Part shown: positions 5,377-10,465 of the stretch, in pieces
Layout: each line of letters opens with the position of its first letter
How positions within the stretch are numbered: position 1 is the first letter of the stretch
DNA from: Shigella phage Ag3
Reading direction: 5' to 3' (one strand)
Length of the DNA stretch: 64,000 bases
Sequence record: FJ373894
Translations under genes and position numbers: made by a program
Notes under the pieces: generated by a model
The model's database searches: none
Told to the model about the DNA's origin: nothing
Seen by the model: the letters and a program-made list of their open reading frames with translations, nothing else

Positions 5377-6492
5377 TTATGCGTCCAGTTTGTTCAGGCG
5401 TTGTTGGGCAGCATTGTAGAAGTGCTCTGCCAGTTTACAGACGTTGTCAGGGCGCTGGATGTTGTTCCCGGCGCGGATATCCTTCTTCAGGACTTCCACT
5501 GCATCGGTCGCCACCATCTCTTCAGTGACCTCAACCTTCTCAGCCGCCACGGTGATAGTCCGGTCGATGAAGTTGTAGTCAATGCACTTGCAGCGCTTCA
5601 TGGCATCACAGAACTTTTCATAATGCTTAGCATTGTCGCGGTTCTGTACGATTACCTTAACGATCTGTCCTTCAATACCCAAGCCTGTGTTCAGCCATTC
5701 CGGGTCGATCCAGTTACCCTCATCGTCTGAGGACAACTTGGTGTAGTCATACTCCACATAGCGGAACAACGTCTGGTGCTCACTGTTGGGGATGAATACC
5801 TCTCCGCCGCGCATGTCGTCCACATAGAAGCCACGGTTGGTGCCGTCTTTGTAGTCTTCCCAGTTCAGGTGATACGGAGTCCCAATATATTGAATGTTAC
5901 CTTCCATCGAACGGGTATGGAAATGTCCCGTGTCGACCCTGGTAAACTTGGAAAGCAGAGCAACGTCGATCTGACCGTGATCACAAGTAGAAGACTGGTA
6001 CATTTTGAACCCTGCCAGCTCCAGATGCGCAAAACAGTACTCGGCGTCTGTATCTTGTATCGCTTTAATAGACGCATCATAGTTCTCCTTGTTGATCCAA
6101 GGCAGCAGCAGAGTCTTGACACCCTCGATCAACACTTCGGTCGGTTCGCTGTAGTAGCAGTACACATCTGGGTCGAGTTCGTTCAGGTAGGATGGCCAGT
6201 TGATGCGGTTGGTCTCTTCCAGGGTGATGTCGTGGTTGCCAACAATGCCATTCCACTTGATGCCAGCCGCTTTCAGCGCTGGAGTTAATTCATCCTTCAG
6301 CCAGTCTTTGTCGCGCCCGTACATGAATTTTCGGACGTCAAACGTGTCACCCAATTGCCAGACCTCATGGATGTCCGAGTCGACAAGCTCGGGGATGAAA
6401 TAGTTGATGAGGTAGTTCTTGATGAAGTCGCGAACGTAACGGGAACCATTACGGCTCCCGATATGCAGATCGCCTATTTTAGCAATCGCCAT
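5377..6492 (-). CDS. 47: recombination endonuclease subunit gp47 (Mre11/SbcD-like)
   Basis: Phosphoesterase motifs GDLHIG, GDTFDVRK, GNHD matching T4 gp47. Confidence 0.9.
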   Translation of the reverse strand: MAIAKIGDLHIGSRNGSRYVRDFIKNYLINYFIPELVDSDIHEVWQLGDTFDVRKFMYGRDKDWLKDELTPALKAAGIKWNGIVGNHDITLEETNRINWPSYLNELDPDVYCYYSEPTEVLIEGVKTLLLPWINKENYDASIKAIQDTDAEYCFAHLELAGFKMYQSSTCDHGQIDVALLSKFTRVDTGHFHTRSMEGNIQYIGTPYHLNWEDYKDGTNRGFYVDDMRGGEVFIPNSEHQTLFRYVEYDYTKLSSDDEGNWIDPEWLNTGLGIEGQIVKVIVQNRDNAKHYEKFCDAMKRCKCIDYNFIDRTITVAAEKVEVTEEMVATDAVEVLKKDIRAGNNIQRPDNVCKLAEHFYNAAQQRLNKLDA

Positions 6493-7270
6493 TATTCTTT
6501 TTCTCCCGTTCTTCTAATCTTTGTTTGAGGGCTTCCCAATCTGGTTCCATCGCACAGATATCATCTTCCAGATTGAATTGGGTTTTGCCGAAGTCCTGAT
6601 CTGAATTGTCTTCGGCCTGCGCTGTTACCGTATTCTTAGCCTGCGCCATGTATTGAAGTATGCCTTTCGCAATCTTTTTATTCGATTCTGCGAGACGAGC
6701 CGCCTCCACCTTCTCTCGCTCCTTCTGCCTTTGAGCGTCCTTTTTGTTCTCAAAGTTGCCGATACGTTCACGGAAGTCCATGCCAATCCCTGTCGCATCA
6801 ACAAAGATCTCTTGTTGGAAGTCAGGGTCGTCTGCCAGGCCTGCGAACCCACCCGCCTCTTCAAATGAGCGCAATTTGATGTACGTATGTTCTTCTTCGA
6901 TATTCAGTTTACGAGCAAATGAGCGATCTGCACACATGGTCACCCAAGAGAAGAAGTTGATCTTCCCTTTCTTTCCAATGTGGTCGACGTCAAAGGTGTG
7001 GAGGTAACGCAGGATGTTGACGATTGCTTCAGAGACCATGTCTTCACGGAAGGGATAGTCGCGATAGTTGTAGCGGGTGCTCATCTTGGTGATGATGCGC
7101 TGGACCTGTAGAGCAACATAGTTGGGGATCTTTGGAAGCCTGGTGCCTTCAGCCAGAGCCTTCTTACGAGCAGGGATCCAATCACGAAGGATACTGATGA
7201 CACGCTCGTTATCTTCGTCCGTGAAATATTTGACGACATTCTCGCCACGATCAACATAATTCATACCCAT
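6479..7270 (-). CDS. 55: late-transcription sigma factor gp55-like
   Basis: Position upstream of gp47 as in T4; sigma-region-2-like pattern alignable to T4 gp55; GAGGG RBS. Confidence 0.7.
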   Translation of the reverse strand: MGMNYVDRGENVVKYFTDEDNERVISILRDWIPARKKALAEGTRLPKIPNYVALQVQRIITKMSTRYNYRDYPFREDMVSEAIVNILRYLHTFDVDHIGKKGKINFFSWVTMCADRSFARKLNIEEEHTYIKLRSFEEAGGFAGLADDPDFQQEIFVDATGIGMDFRERIGNFENKKDAQRQKEREKVEAARLAESNKKIAKGILQYMAQAKNTVTAQAEDNSDQDFGKTQFNLEDDICAMEPDWEALKQRLEEREKKNNGDC

Positions 7271-7281
7271 TGTGGGAACCC

Positions 7282-7809
7282 TCAGATACCGATAAATTCA
7301 TCAAAAGATCCAACAACCTTCTTCACTGAGATCTTGTCATTCTCAATCAGGAAGTTGCTGTCGTTTTTGGCTGCTGTGGCCCAGTCATCGGCAAGTTCGT
7401 TACCTTCGTGCCCCGCATGACCCTTAACCCATTTTAGTTCAACTTCACAAATTGAACAAACGAGATCATAGATTCTGAACAGATCTTTGATGAGTTCAAC
7501 GTTCTTGTCTGGGAAACCCTGATACTCCCACTTCGCTCGCCATTCGGTGACGCTCTTGATGGTGTATTGACTGTCAGACCAAATTGTTGCCTTTGGTATT
7601 CTGCGCTCACCCTTTCCTGAGAATGCCCACAGCAGCTTCAATGCGTTGGTCACACCCAACAACTCGGCGATGTTGTTGGTGGACGGGGGAGGTAGGTGAC
7701 CGAAGAACACCTTCCATTGCATACCCGATATTGGCCTGATGACAAATGCCCATCCTGCGGCCTGGTTGGTCTTCGGGTTAGAACCCCCGTCAGAATAAAT
7801 TTCTATCAT
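7282..7809 (-). CDS. rnhA: ribonuclease HI (RnhA-type)
   Basis: Motifs IEIYSDGGS, NNIAEL, IWSDSQY, KWVKGHAGHEGNELADDWA match E. coli RNase HI; start moved to ATG at 7809 (ORF track extends to 7905). Confidence 0.85.
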   Translation of the reverse strand: MIEIYSDGGSNPKTNQAAGWAFVIRPISGMQWKVFFGHLPPPSTNNIAELLGVTNALKLLWAFSGKGERRIPKATIWSDSQYTIKSVTEWRAKWEYQGFPDKNVELIKDLFRIYDLVCSICEVELKWVKGHAGHEGNELADDWATAAKNDSNFLIENDKISVKKVVGSFDEFIGI

Positions 7810-7810
7810 G

Positions 7811-7819
7811 ATATAAATA
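7811..7819 (+). promoter_or_regulatory. late-promoter-like box TATAAATAT
   Basis: About 36 nt upstream of plus-strand ATG 7855. Confidence 0.45.
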
Positions 7820-7854
7820 TCCCAAACTGGTTTTATAGAAAGAGGAATGAAACT

Positions 7855-8622
7855 ATGGCACCCCGCGCATATCGTTTCAGTCTCACCGCCCCGCAGATTG
7901 AGCAATTGCTCCTTTCTATCAATGATGCTATCAAGTCAGAAGATATCATCTATGATTATGCTGCAGGTGGGACTGTTGGGCAAGTCGCAGCAGCGTCTGC
8001 CGTCAAGAACATGTGGTTGAAGCTCAACGAGATGGTAACAGGCCAAGGCCTCAAAGATGCCATCAACGCTGCAGAAGACAGCAACGTGTTCACTGACTAT
8101 TATAAGTCTTTACTGGATCGCGAAGGCTGGAAATTTATTGGGTCTCCGGCAGATGAACTTGAGCGAGGCGACATCGACACCGCGAACTTCACGGGTGGTG
8201 AGGTCATTCTACTTCAGAAGAACGCTTCAGGCAACCCCGAATTCCAATACTGGAAGCGAACCCCGGTTGCTGGGGGTGATCCTACCTTTGCATGGGCTTC
8301 GGTCTATGAAGGGAACTCCAATGACTCTTCCATTGAGATCCCTGTGGTTGGCACCAGCGTACTCAAGGACATCCCCAAGGCGCTCTTCCATATGATCGAG
8401 TTCAGAGTGCATGTCTACGATGAGACACTGGGTCATTGGCAGGACACCGACGGAAAAGTAGGGTATCGTGGCGAGGATCTGTTCTACAGCGTCTACAACC
8501 ATGTTCAGACCAAACCTCTCGCCACCATTGACTTCAGTCAAGACACAGATAGCATGACAGTCTCTGTTACTTCCCTGGAGCCGAATGTCAAATGCCATCT
8601 GTCGTTTATCGCTGGTTACTAA
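7855..8622 (+). CDS. hypothetical protein, plus-strand late-type gene
   Basis: ATG at 7855 with AGAGGAA RBS and TATAAATAT late-promoter-like box at 7811-7819; ORF track extends upstream to 7696 (GTG start) but that region is antisense to RNase H. Confidence 0.6.
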   Translation: MAPRAYRFSLTAPQIEQLLLSINDAIKSEDIIYDYAAGGTVGQVAAASAVKNMWLKLNEMVTGQGLKDAINAAEDSNVFTDYYKSLLDREGWKFIGSPADELERGDIDTANFTGGEVILLQKNASGNPEFQYWKRTPVAGGDPTFAWASVYEGNSNDSSIEIPVVGTSVLKDIPKALFHMIEFRVHVYDETLGHWQDTDGKVGYRGEDLFYSVYNHVQTKPLATIDFSQDTDSMTVSVTSLEPNVKCHLSFIAGY

Positions 8623-10337
8623 ACCTCGAACACGGCATCAGTAAACCAAGCGGGGAAGAACTCTGGGTTGCGCATCATCAGTGATTCAAAAGAAGAATCA
8701 AGGATGTATGTCGCAGCCCAGTCATTCACGCCCCTGACCGAACGCCCGCACATCTGAACGATACGCAGTACCGCCATCCTGAAGTACGCCGATGGGTCTA
8801 CACTGTTGACGTGAGCCACCAGAGGATCACCAAGGTAATCGTATGGAACCTTGATCAAGATCTGAAATCGGCTGTAATCGCCTTTGAAGTCATACCCCTC
8901 TTCCATAGCCGGACTGGCGATGACACAAGGCGTCTTCGTCCGGAACGCGTGTTCCATGATGTCCATCAGAGCCTTACGAGTACGAGGAACGTGAATCATA
9001 TTCCGGTACTTACTGAACTTCTGTAGAGCCAGGGCGCGGTCATAACTTACTGTGTGAATGATACCAGACTGCCCAGGGTGGAATGCGATGATTTCATCCA
9101 CGTATTCGGCCAGCTTCTTCATCTCATAGTCACCCATGTTCGCCGTCATCTTCATGATGGGCATGTAGTTGACTTTCCGGTTCTCAATCGGGATAGGGTT
9201 GCCGATCTGAATCTTGTGGTACTCGCCCTCACGGATACCCAGTGACCGAGCGTACGAGTCAATCCCACAAATGGTCGCCGACATGTGAACGTGGTAGTCA
9301 CCCTTGCGGAACAGGCCGAACTGGGATACATCAGATGCGATGACAGGCTTGAACTGAATCATACCCTTGTCCTTCTCCTGCACGATGAAGGTGCTGGCGT
9401 TGGTCTGCCCCATGATCCCACAGTAGTCGCTGAGGTTGTGAAGGGTGTCAATGATGTCCGACAACTTCATCACCTGGGCTTCAGTCAGGCGCTCGTCCTC
9501 TACCAGTTCCTCAAGAGTTTCCAGCAGGGCTTCAACCTTGTCATGCAGGTCGTCAAATATCGAATGCATCTCGCCTGTTAGTGAGTACAGCTTGCCCAGC
9601 TCATAGTTCTCTGTGCGCCTGATGATATCCGTGATGGTCTCCACGATAGGCACTCCCTCGGGGATCGTAAGCAACCCCCTTACAGCATTTATACTGTATT
9701 CCATGATCGTGTGCTCTAGGAGCGTAGAGGGCATCTTATGGCACTCGTCAAGGATCAGCATATCGGCGCGGTTTTCCGGCTTCATACAGATCGTCGTGCA
9801 CATCTCCACCATCATGGCGGCGTTGGTGCAGCGCAGAGAAGAGATGTCCGTCCACTGACGACGCGCCTGAACATATGGACAACGATTCTTGTTACAGTGG
9901 CCATCTCGGCATGCCATACGGCACTGGATGGCGTTGTAATACAGGTCAGGGCTGATATGGCAACGATAGTTCTTCTTGCCCTTCAGGATGTCTATCGCCA
10001 CGGCTTTCTCCGCCGCATACTGATCCTGCAGACCTTTGGTCGGTGTTGTGATAGACGTGCGGAACTGGCCATATGGGTTGCGCTCAAGAACCAGATGGCG
10101 AAGCACATTATGAATGGTAGTGCCGATGAGGGATTTGCCCACACCAGTCGGAGCCTCGATGATCACGTGTTTGAATTTCTTATTCACAAGGGCATCAACG
10201 GCTTCAACGATGCATTCCATCTGTCCTGGGTTGGCGGTGTCGTATGGGAAGAACTCAGTGGCAAGAGACTTGATGCGGTCTATGCTAACTGGTCCGACGC
10301 CATCAAGCGCCTTGGTATATTGGTTGAATGCTGTCAC
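8619..10337 (-). CDS. SF2 DNA helicase, DinG/XPD(Rad3)-like with Fe-S cysteine cluster
   Basis: Walker A APTGVGKS, four-Cys cluster between Walker A and B, DECH box (LILDECH); GTG start with AGGAGG RBS. Confidence 0.75.
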   Translation of the reverse strand: MTAFNQYTKALDGVGPVSIDRIKSLATEFFPYDTANPGQMECIVEAVDALVNKKFKHVIIEAPTGVGKSLIGTTIHNVLRHLVLERNPYGQFRTSITTPTKGLQDQYAAEKAVAIDILKGKKNYRCHISPDLYYNAIQCRMACRDGHCNKNRCPYVQARRQWTDISSLRCTNAAMMVEMCTTICMKPENRADMLILDECHKMPSTLLEHTIMEYSINAVRGLLTIPEGVPIVETITDIIRRTENYELGKLYSLTGEMHSIFDDLHDKVEALLETLEELVEDERLTEAQVMKLSDIIDTLHNLSDYCGIMGQTNASTFIVQEKDKGMIQFKPVIASDVSQFGLFRKGDYHVHMSATICGIDSYARSLGIREGEYHKIQIGNPIPIENRKVNYMPIMKMTANMGDYEMKKLAEYVDEIIAFHPGQSGIIHTVSYDRALALQKFSKYRNMIHVPRTRKALMDIMEHAFRTKTPCVIASPAMEEGYDFKGDYSRFQILIKVPYDYLGDPLVAHVNSVDPSAYFRMAVLRIVQMCGRSVRGVNDWAATYILDSSFESLMMRNPEFFPAWFTDAVFEV

Positions 10338-10382
10338 TTTCTTCCTCCTATGGGATTCGCCTTTAGTTTAACCGATTCCCAG

Positions 10383-10414
10383 GAACGAAAAAGCCGGAGT
10401 ACAATGCTCCGGCT
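10383..10414 (-). terminator. rho-independent terminator after HU gene
   Basis: Hairpin AGCCGGAG-tacaatg-CTCCGGCT followed on minus strand by TTTTTCGTT; T-rich on plus side too. Confidence 0.7.
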
Positions 10415-10465
10415 TTCTCTTTTGTCACGCCCCGCGTTGCAGAGGCCGGACCGAACCAGGTTGAA

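What the first reader, a model, noticed from the sequence alone, without database searches (positions are those of the whole stretch)
7282..8622. RnhA-type RNase HI overlapped by an opposite-strand late-type gene
The RNase H is of the cellular RnhA family, not the T4 FEN-type RNase H. Its 5' end is flanked by the only clear plus-strand gene in the early region (7855..8622, 256 aa, no recognised motif), which has a TATAAATAT box and strong RBS. The divergent arrangement within under 50 bp suggests coupled or mutually exclusive expression.
Basis: seen in the sequence. Interest (0 to 1): 0.45.

Follow-up and report, generated by a model that had tools for sequence, protein, structure and literature searches.

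The report
RNase HI beside gp9-like baseplate gene
In this Ackermannviridae phage an ordinary cellular-type RNase HI gene sits head-to-head with a real late gene for a virion protein, and that protein's C-terminal domain is a remote relative of the T4 gp9 tail-fibre socket, a part these phages have been said to lack.

Summary
The window is an Agtrevirus-like Ackermannviridae phage, 97-98% identical to phages P46FS4, MK-13 and SKML-39. Both genes are real but they do not overlap. RNase HI is 7282..7809 (-), not ..7905. The plus-strand gene is 7855..8622, 255 aa. The 45-bp gap between them holds TATAAATA (7812-7819) and an AAGAGGAA ribosome-binding site. The only overlap is 4 bp, tail-to-tail, with the DinG-like helicase gene (8619..10337, -).

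The RNase H is RnhA-type with all catalytic residues. The plus-strand gene is late-type. Its box carries the TAAATA core that in this window sits in front of the prohead protease, terminase and tailspike genes. Its LIMEstone1 orthologue (ORF093) was found in virions by mass spectrometry (40.8% coverage, 8 peptides) with a late promoter annotated. This arrangement is therefore already annotated in relatives.

Nothing supports special coupling with RNase H; outside the family the gene has other neighbours. Interest is modest.

The parts
7282..7809 (-). RnhA-type RNase HI gene (175 aa plus stop); start is the ATG at 7809..7807
   Evidence: Pfam PF00075 E 2.8e-25, 89.6 bits. PHROG 531 'Rnase H' E 3e-59. 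Aligns to E. coli RNase HI: D7/E49/D79/D141 and H131 match D10/E48/D70/D134 and H124. Annotated with the same length in P46FS4, LIMEstone1 and vB_CECAV_050.
7810..7854 (.). 45-bp divergent intergenic region
   Evidence: Read from the sequence. Identical in LIMEstone1, vB_CECAV_050 and P46FS4; 27-59 bp in other genera.
7812..7819 (+). T4-type late promoter box TATAAATA, 3 bp from the RNase H start codon and 35 bp before the plus-strand ATG
   Evidence: Only exact copy in the window. Annotated as a putative late promoter in LIMEstone1. A box is kept at the same place across genera: TATAAATA, ATAAATA, CTAAATA, and TATAAGTA in Kuttervirus. The TAAATA core is enriched upstream of late genes in this window.
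7840..7847 (+). Ribosome-binding site AAGAGGAA, 7 nt upstream of the ATG
   Evidence: Read from the sequence. GAGGAA is kept in all genera aligned.
7855..8622 (+). Late gene for a 255-aa virion protein (PHROG 3833), a proposed gp9-like baseplate adaptor
   Evidence: Full-length homologues at 53-99% identity across Ackermannviridae. The LIMEstone1 orthologue ORF093 was detected in virions by mass spectrometry. AF2 model has mean pLDDT 85.
8035..8118 (+). aa 61-88, one copy of an 'A-I-x-A-A-x-D-S-N-V-F-T-D-x-x-K-x-x-L' unit that is tandemly repeated in long fibre- or tailspike-like proteins
   Evidence: The profile search matched this stretch 6-8 times in each of P0086, P0087, P0092 and P0094. 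P0094 carries a pectate-lyase beta-helix.
8311..8619 (+). aa 153-255, beta-sandwich domain homologous to the C-terminal (long-tail-fibre socket) domain of T4 gp9
8619..10337 (-). DinG/Rad3-like helicase gene, convergent, with a 4-bp stop-codon overlap with the late gene
   Evidence: Pfam Helicase_C_2, ResIII and DEAD. PHROG 2488, E 4.9e-261. Coordinates.
10390..10416 (.). 12-bp-stem hairpin with T-runs on both strands. It is the likely bidirectional terminator and the first terminator-like site downstream of the late gene on the plus strand.
   Evidence: Terminator scan. Fold of -21.3 kcal/mol, z -4.1. Minus-strand tail TTTTTCGTT. Annotated as a minus-strand terminator in LIMEstone1.
6479..7270 (-). 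gp55-like late sigma factor gene, immediately downstream of RNase H in the same minus-strand gene row
   Evidence: PHROG 234 'late sigma transcription factor', E 6.8e-52. Annotated as gp55 in relatives.

Best explanation
Two independent, ordinary genes lie back-to-back.

(1) RNase HI. The minus-strand gene 7282..7809 encodes a catalytically complete cellular-type RNase HI. It sits in a minus-strand row of replication and recombination genes: helicase, RNase H, gp55, gp47, gp46. It presumably removes RNA primers or R-loops during phage DNA replication.

(2) The late gene. The plus-strand gene 7855..8622 is a self-contained late cassette: a gp55-type promoter box, a strong ribosome-binding site, then the ORF. 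It is wedged in the opposite orientation into that row. Its product is a virion protein with three parts:
- a helical N-terminal part (aa 1-105) that carries one fibre-shaft repeat unit;
- a small beta unit;
- a C-terminal beta-sandwich (aa 153-255) homologous to the C-terminal domain of T4 gp9, the domain onto which the long tail fibre docks coaxially.

Proposed function (inferred). The protein forms trimers at the baseplate periphery and acts as an adaptor or socket for a trimeric appendage. The most attractive partner is the anchor domain of tailspike TSP4, which carries the branched tailspike complex.

Proposed transcription (inferred).
- Late transcripts start a few bases after 7819.
- They cross the ORF and, with no terminator in between, run antisense through the helicase gene to the hairpin at 10390-10416.

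Status of each step.
- Shown: both ORFs, the RNase H family and active site, the promoter motif and its conservation, virion presence of the orthologue, and gp9 C-domain homology.
- Inferred: trimer state, baseplate location, docking partner, transcript ends, and any interference with the early operon.
For: Phage identity and conserved gene order.

RNase HI.

Late class:
- Exact TATAAATA at 7812.
- The TAAATA core occurs 18 times in the window. Eleven copies lie in short non-coding gaps 27-43 nt before an RBS and ATG, including the prohead protease, terminase and tailspike genes, although gaps are about 6% of the sequence.
- LIMEstone1 annotators marked the same TAAATA boxes as late promoters.
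- gp55 is encoded next door.

Virion protein: LIMEstone1 ORF093 at 40.8% coverage with 8 peptides (PMC3296691).

gp9 link, from independent methods:
- Profile against PDB sequences, E 5e-4.
- Pfam T4_gp9_10_C is the family matched by the most members.
- hhalign 94.6%, E 7e-8.
- Foldseek top hit 1qex, E 2e-7.

Supporting knowledge:
- In T4 the gp9 C-domain is the fibre socket and the N-domain binds gp7 (PMC3004832).
- T4 gene 9 also has its own late promoter.
Against: - The gp9 homology covers only about 100 C-terminal residues. The single sequence fails Pfam thresholds, and sequence identity is about 13%.
- gp9's N-terminal coiled coil and middle domain are not detectable here.
- In Ackermannviridae those modules are instead found in TSP4-N (PMC8432352; PMC8825819). 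TSP4 might therefore occupy the gp9 position itself.
- The gp9 C-domain fold may serve merely as a trimerisation module (PMC10253068).
- No structure or localisation of this protein in a virion was found.
- No transcript data were found for any Ackermannviridae phage.
- In Kuttervirus the box is TATAAGTA, a departure from the consensus.
Confidence: 0.7

Rival explanations
1. The head-to-head arrangement is a regulatory switch. The late promoter complex (gp55, gp33 and the gp45 clamp) sits on the RNase H translation-start region. Together with head-on late transcription, this would shut off the helicase-RNase H-gp55-gp47-gp46 row late in infection. Antisense RNA across the helicase gene would reinforce the shut-off.
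For: - The box lies 3 bp from the RNase H start codon in every Ackermannviridae genus examined, including the Vibrio genus Vapseptimavirus.
- No plus-strand terminator-like site lies between the late gene and the hairpin at 10390-10416. Late RNA should therefore be antisense to all 1.7 kb of the helicase gene.
- The gene for the late sigma factor lies in the opposed row.
Against: - No expression data exist.
- The tight spacing is equally explained by genome compaction. Most gene junctions in this window are a few bases long, and about 94% of the window is covered by the ORF map.
- Distant relatives of the late gene have other head-to-head neighbours: a 260-aa protein in L008 and a 73-aa protein in L010.
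- Opposed late and early transcription is commonplace in T4-type phages without implying gene-specific switches (general knowledge of T4).
Confidence: 0.15
2. The 255-aa protein is a virion component outside the baseplate, such as a head decoration, neck or collar protein. On this reading the gp9-like C-terminal domain is only a generic trimerising beta-sandwich.
For: - The fold family also turns up as a C-terminal trimerisation domain in unrelated fibre proteins (PMC10253068).
- The gene lies far from the baseplate and tailspike clusters (about 52-64 kb in the window).
Against: - The best sequence and structure matches are specifically gp9 and the particle-proximal parts of tail fibres and tailspikes, not capsid or neck proteins.
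- The N-terminal part carries a fibre-shaft repeat unit.
- One depositor already labelled the orthologue 'baseplate wedge protein' (SeF3a). The basis is not stated, so this is weak evidence.
Confidence: 0.2
3. The plus-strand ORF is a chance antisense ORF and not a gene.
For: Long spurious ORFs antisense to real genes are common in this window.
Against: - No competing minus-strand gene covers 7855-8622.
- Full-length homologues go down to about 21% identity (about 53% within the close Ackermannviridae set) in many phages, with conserved length.
- Peptides were recovered from virions.
- The fold is predicted with confidence.
Confidence: 0.01

Closest known systems
T4 gp9, baseplate wedge tail-fibre connector (PDB 1QEX/1S2E; Pfam PF07880 plus PF23618)
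   Same: - A late-expressed virion protein of similar size (255 versus 288 aa).
- A C-terminal beta-sandwich homologous to the gp9 C-terminal domain that receives the long tail fibre.
- Its gene has its own late promoter, as T4 gene 9 does.
   Different: - The N-terminal 150 residues show no detectable relation to gp9's coiled coil and middle (XD1) domain.
- The gene is not in the baseplate cluster but sits alone among replication genes.
- The phage has no long tail fibres, so the partner must be something else.
LIMEstone1 ORF093, Vi01_105 and PHROG 3833 (orthologues in Ackermannviridae)
   Same: Same gene, same neighbours and same promoter box. The LIMEstone1 protein is a virion component confirmed by mass spectrometry.
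   Different: These are annotated only as 'unknown structural protein', 'hypothetical' or 'conserved phage associated protein'. No gp9 relation is noted there. A 2024 review states that these phages lack Gp9-Gp11 (PMC11721090).
E. coli RNase HI (RnhA, PDB 2RN2 and others)
   Same: Same fold family, the same DEDD active site with His, and the GHxGxxxNExAD motif.
   Different: About 20 residues longer, with an insertion around aa 61-74 and a C-terminal tail. It is phage-encoded. It is not the FEN-type 'RNase H' of T4.
CBA120 TSP4 N-terminal region (anchor domain plus XD1-3; PDB 7REJ)
   Same: Another Ackermannviridae virion protein built from T4 gp9/gp10-type modules that mediate contacts between trimers (PMC8825819; PMC8432352).
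   Different: TSP4-N resembles the N-terminal and middle parts of gp9 and gp10, whereas the protein here resembles the C-terminal part of gp9. The two are complementary rather than homologous.

Membership tests
RNase HI (RnhA type, Pfam PF00075) | Significant match to the RNase_H profile over the whole domain | tested here: met
   89.6 bits against a cut-off of 25.8, residues 4-148 on profile positions 5-139 of 141. PHROG 531, E 3e-59.
RNase HI (RnhA type, Pfam PF00075) | Catalytic carboxylates D10, E48, D70, D134 and H124 (E. coli numbering) | tested here: met
   The alignment to E. coli RNase HI gives D7, E49, D79, D141 and H131 at those positions.
RNase HI (RnhA type, Pfam PF00075) | Cleaves the RNA strand of RNA/DNA hybrids | not testable with these tools
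   Needs an enzyme assay.
T4 RNase H (FEN / 5'-3' exonuclease type) | Match to 5'-3' exonuclease / FEN profiles | tested here: not met
   The only Pfam hits are RNase_H and a weak RVT_3.
T4 gp9 baseplate tail-fibre connector | C-terminal beta-sandwich domain (Pfam PF23618, gp9 residues about 167-288) | tested here: met
T4 gp9 baseplate tail-fibre connector | N-terminal coiled coil and middle XD1 domain (Pfam PF07880) | tested here: not met
   No PF07880 match in any of the 39 family members. The hhalign alignment is confined to the C-terminal domain.
T4 gp9 baseplate tail-fibre connector | Homotrimer, six trimers per baseplate, bound to gp7, with a fibre docked coaxially | not testable with these tools
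   Only monomer prediction was available. Known for T4 from PMC3004832.
T4 gp9 baseplate tail-fibre connector | Present in the virion | tested here: met
   By orthology only: LIMEstone1 ORF093 at 40.8% coverage with 8 peptides.
T4-type late promoter (gp55-dependent) | TATAAATA-like box without a -35 element, a short distance upstream of a late gene | tested here: met
   Exact box at 7812-7819, 35 nt before the ATG. The same TAAATA core lies 27-43 nt before other late genes of the window.
T4-type late promoter (gp55-dependent) | Phage encodes gp55, gp33 and the gp45 clamp | tested here: inconclusive
   gp55 is confirmed in the window. gp33 and gp45 are reported for the close relative AG3 (PMC3121705), and gp45 is annotated in LIMEstone1. 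Neither was checked in this window.
T4-type late promoter (gp55-dependent) | Late, replication-dependent transcript starting just downstream of the box | not testable with these tools
   No transcriptome of an Ackermannviridae phage was found.

The most novel reading that the evidence does not exclude
Ackermannviridae do have a counterpart of the T4 gp9 fibre socket, hidden in this stand-alone late gene. In these phages the gp9 modules would be split between two proteins. TSP4-N carries the gp9-like N-terminal and middle parts. This 255-aa protein carries the gp9-like C-terminal socket. The 255-aa protein would be the so far unidentified baseplate partner onto which the TSP4 anchor domain docks coaxially. 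It would thus attach the whole branched tailspike complex and relay receptor binding to the baseplate.
Probability: 0.3. Interest if true: 0.5.

Novelty: new variant of a known kind. Interest (0 to 1): 0.3.

Why it matters
The finding as written describes an arrangement that is already annotated in related phages, so it is ordinary.

The added value is a functional lead for a conserved virion protein of unknown function in Ackermannviridae. This phage family is widely used for biocontrol and studied for its multi-tailspike host range.

The baseplate partner of the TSP4 anchor is not identified in the papers read here. A recent review states that gp9-gp11 are absent from these phages. A gp9-C-like adaptor gives a concrete, testable candidate for that partner. 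It also suggests that T4 baseplate modules were redistributed among proteins rather than lost.

Tried and rejected
- Single-sequence searches of the 255-aa protein gave nothing useful. Pfam returned only a sub-threshold DUF4859 hit. PDB returned only a chance match to a synthetic repeat protein.
- Literature searches found no cryo-EM structure of an Ackermannviridae baseplate. They found no paper on the Klebsiella phage Lilla1 structure 9f4a and no Ackermannviridae transcriptome.
- Sigma-70-like promoters that could drive RNase H from inside the late gene, on the minus strand at 8234-8206 and 7983-7955, occur at the chance rate: 8 found against 6.5 expected. They were not pursued.
- The extended starts were rejected. 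The N-termini of all homologues begin at the ATG sites, which are preceded by ribosome-binding sites:
  - TTG at 7905 for RNase H;
  - GTG at 7696 for the late gene, as annotated in ChubbyThor at 308 aa.
- The idea that strand marks temporal class in this phage was rejected, because the main late genes share the minus strand with the early genes.

Full report
**What the window is.** A megablast of 6400-10400 finds 232 phage records. The best are Salmonella phage P46FS4 and Shigella phages MK-13 and Gloob, plus SKML-39, at 97-98% identity. All are Ackermannviridae, subfamily Aglimvirinae, genus Agtrevirus. The local gene order is the same in every relative fetched:
- gp46, gp47, gp55 and RNase H on one strand;
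- one gene on the other strand;
- then a helicase on the first strand again.

The relatives fetched cover Agtrevirus, Limestonevirus, Kuttervirus, a Klebsiella phage (KFM-TASP06) whose record carries no genus assignment, Nezavisimistyvirus, Miltonvirus and the Vibrio genus Vapseptimavirus.

**Checking the observation.**
- The mechanical ORF list gives 7282..7905 (-) starting at a TTG, and 7696..8622 (+) starting at a GTG. These would overlap.
- The conserved starts are the ATG at 7809 for RNase H (175 aa) and the ATG at 7855 for the plus-strand gene (255 aa). These lengths match the annotations in P46FS4, LIMEstone1 and vB_CECAV_050. All 27 aligned homologues of the plus-strand protein begin there.
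- The genes are therefore divergent with a 45-bp gap (7810-7854), not overlapping.
- The gap contains TATAAATA at 7812-7819 followed by T, and AAGAGGAA at 7840-7847.
- At its 3' end the plus-strand gene overlaps the convergent helicase gene by 4 bp (8619-8622).

**The RNase H.**
- Pfam RNase_H scores 89.6 bits and PHROG 531 gives E 3e-59.
- The best solved relatives are E. coli RNase HI variants.
- In that alignment D7, E49, D79, D141 and H131 fall on E. coli D10, E48, D70, D134 and H124. The enzyme should be active.
Nothing is unusual about it.

**Is the plus-strand gene real and late?**
- It has full-length homologues at 53-99% identity throughout Ackermannviridae.
- It also has a wider family of 245-260-aa proteins down to about 20% identity. 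These occur in Vibrio phages, Ralstonia phage RSP15 and roughly 168-kb metagenomic T4-like contigs.
- Its LIMEstone1 orthologue ORF093 is listed among virion proteins identified by ESI-MS/MS: 28.3 kDa, 40.78% coverage, 8 unique peptides (PMC3296691). The GenBank record marks a putative late promoter at the same box.
- That paper also states that all twelve unknown structural proteins of LIMEstone1 have structural counterparts in phage ViI.

**The promoter box.**
- One exact TATAAATA in 64 kb is not significant on its own: 0.54 are expected, and 43 of 100 shuffles have at least one.
- The shorter core TAAATA occurs 18 times on both strands. Eleven copies lie in short non-coding gaps, 27-43 nt upstream of an RBS and ATG. 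These include the genes homologous to the prohead protease, the terminase and the tailspikes. Gaps make up only about 6% of the sequence.
- The LIMEstone1 authors marked the same TAAATA boxes as late promoters.
- The phage's usual late box is therefore CTAAATA. The gene studied here carries the full T4 form.
- A box is kept next to the RNase H start codon in every genus:
  - TATAAATA in Agtrevirus, Limestonevirus, the Klebsiella phage KFM-TASP06 and Miltonvirus;
  - (T)ATAAATA in Nezavisimistyvirus;
  - CTAAATA in Vapseptimavirus;
  - TATAAGTA in Kuttervirus (Vi01, SeF3a).
- The late sigma factor gp55 is encoded two genes away.
- Taken together, the late-gene reading is well supported, although no transcript data exist.

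**What the 255-aa protein is.**

- Direct searches were empty, and PHROG 3833 has no assigned function.
- An AF2 model from close homologues had a confident C-terminal beta-sandwich only.

*Sequence-level tests with a widened family profile.* An exhaustive profile search supplied distant full-length relatives. I aligned these with the close homologues as A2.
- The A2 profile matches T4 gp9 itself among all PDB sequences. E is 5e-4, with profile positions 148-246 on gp9 residues 174-280.
- Scanning each A2 member against Pfam makes PF23618 (T4 gp9/10-like C-terminal) the family hit by the most members, though weakly: 5 of 39, best E 0.004.
- I built a gp9 family alignment from T4 gene 9 and its homologues. 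hhalign of A2 against it gives 94.6% probability and E 7.3e-8, with aa 153-250 on gp9 175-280.

*Structure-level tests.*

*Conclusion on homology.* These are different methods, though all use the same homologue set and the models built from it, and they agree. Homology of the C-terminal domain to the gp9 C-terminal domain is well supported.

**What is not gp9-like.**
- The first 150 residues do not align to gp9's coiled coil or middle (XD1) domain. No member matches Pfam PF07880.
- The model shows helices (12-21, 47-72, 81-89) and a small beta unit.
- Residues 61-88 match a unit of the form AIxAAxDSNVFTDxxKxxL. This unit is repeated 6-8 times in long fibre-like proteins. One of these carries a pectate-lyase beta-helix typical of tailspikes.
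- The protein is therefore a variant: a gp9-type C-terminal module on a different N-terminal part.

**How it most likely works.**
- In T4, gp9 is a trimer present in 18 copies. Its N-terminal domain binds gp7, and the long tail fibre attaches coaxially to its C-terminal domain (PMC3004832).
- In Ackermannviridae the N-terminal region of tailspike TSP4 resembles the N-terminal and middle parts of gp9 and gp10. Its extreme N-terminal anchor domain is thought to bind the baseplate (PMC8825819; PMC8432352). None of the papers read here names the partner.
- A 2024 review states that these phages lack Gp9-Gp11 and Gp12 (PMC11721090).
- My inference is that the 255-aa protein is a trimeric peripheral baseplate adaptor whose C-terminal domain receives a trimeric appendage. 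The TSP4 anchor is the most attractive candidate.
- This is inference by analogy. The C-domain might instead serve only for trimerisation (PMC10253068), and the location in the virion has not been shown.
- One depositor already labelled the orthologue 'baseplate wedge protein' without stating a basis (SeF3a).

**Expression and the 'coupling' idea.**
- RNase H has no room for its own promoter in the 45-bp gap. It must be transcribed from further upstream on the minus strand, across the antisense of the late gene.
- Sigma-70-like matches there are at the chance level.
- On the plus strand no terminator-like site follows the late gene until the 12-bp-stem hairpin at 10390-10416. That hairpin has T-runs on both strands. 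It is annotated as a minus-strand terminator in LIMEstone1.
- Late RNA is therefore predicted to run antisense through the whole helicase gene.
- Head-on interference and antisense effects are possible, but nothing indicates a dedicated switch:
  - gene junctions are tight everywhere in the window;
  - most late genes share the strand of the early genes;
  - in more distant relatives the late gene faces other neighbours (L008, L010).
- In L008 it still lies near an RNase H-gp47-gp46 cluster, so the neighbourhood is old, but the direct adjacency is not.

**Verdict.**
It is unsupported on coupling.
- The arrangement is already annotated in related genomes, with virion proteomics.
- The new element is the gp9 C-domain homology of a conserved 'unknown structural protein'. 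It gives a testable candidate for the baseplate socket of the branched tailspike complex.
- Interest is modest.

Noticed in passing
window-wide; e.g. 40879(-), 46402(-), 50679(-), 59083(-), 61539(-), 35375(-), 35168(-), 2273(-): The phage's usual late-promoter box appears to be CTAAATA rather than T4's TATAAATA. Eleven of 18 TAAATA copies sit in short gaps 27-43 nt before an RBS and ATG, in front of the prohead protease, terminase and tailspike genes among others.
   Followed up: partly
window 10390-10416: A 12-bp-stem hairpin between the HU-like gene and the helicase gene has T-runs on both strands (-21.3 kcal/mol, z -4.1). It looks like a bidirectional terminator. It would also end the antisense late transcript.
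   Followed up: partly
L006 1690-1697 (SeF3a) and L013 (Vi01), homologous to window 7812-7819: Kuttervirus phages carry TATAAGTA instead of TATAAATA at the conserved box. Either their late sigma tolerates G at position 6, or this gene is expressed more weakly there.
   Followed up: no
P0002 (ChubbyThor_142, 308 aa); L006 1164-1706 (SeF3a RNase H): Public annotations over-extend both genes. The late gene starts at the GTG equivalent to window 7696, and RNase H starts at a TTG inside the promoter region.
   Followed up: yes
L008 8001-8753; L010 8001-8765: Relatives of the late gene at about 25% identity occur in roughly 168-kb metagenomic T4-like contigs. They too are single plus-strand genes set among minus-strand early genes. 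In L010 the gene also has a 4-bp convergent overlap with its downstream neighbour; in L008 it lies near RNase H, gp47 and gp46.
   Followed up: partly
P0086, P0087, P0092, P0094 (not in the window): Long fibre- or tailspike-like proteins consist of 6-8 tandem copies of a unit of roughly 30 residues (about 31-32) of the form 'AEIRxAVEAATDSNVFTDADHSKLNAIEA'. The 255-aa protein has one copy of it (aa 61-88). Pfam matches this unit only through unrelated families (DUF2922, Lectin_like) with no single stretch significant.
   Followed up: partly
window 6479-6492: The gp55 and gp47 genes overlap by 14 bp on the minus strand (6479..7270 and 5377..6492). This is consistent with translational coupling in the RNase H-gp55-gp47-gp46 row.
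   Followed up: no
literature, PMC11721090: A 2024 review of Ackermannviridae states that the baseplate lacks Gp9-Gp11 and Gp12. The gp9 C-domain homology found here qualifies that statement.
   Followed up: yes
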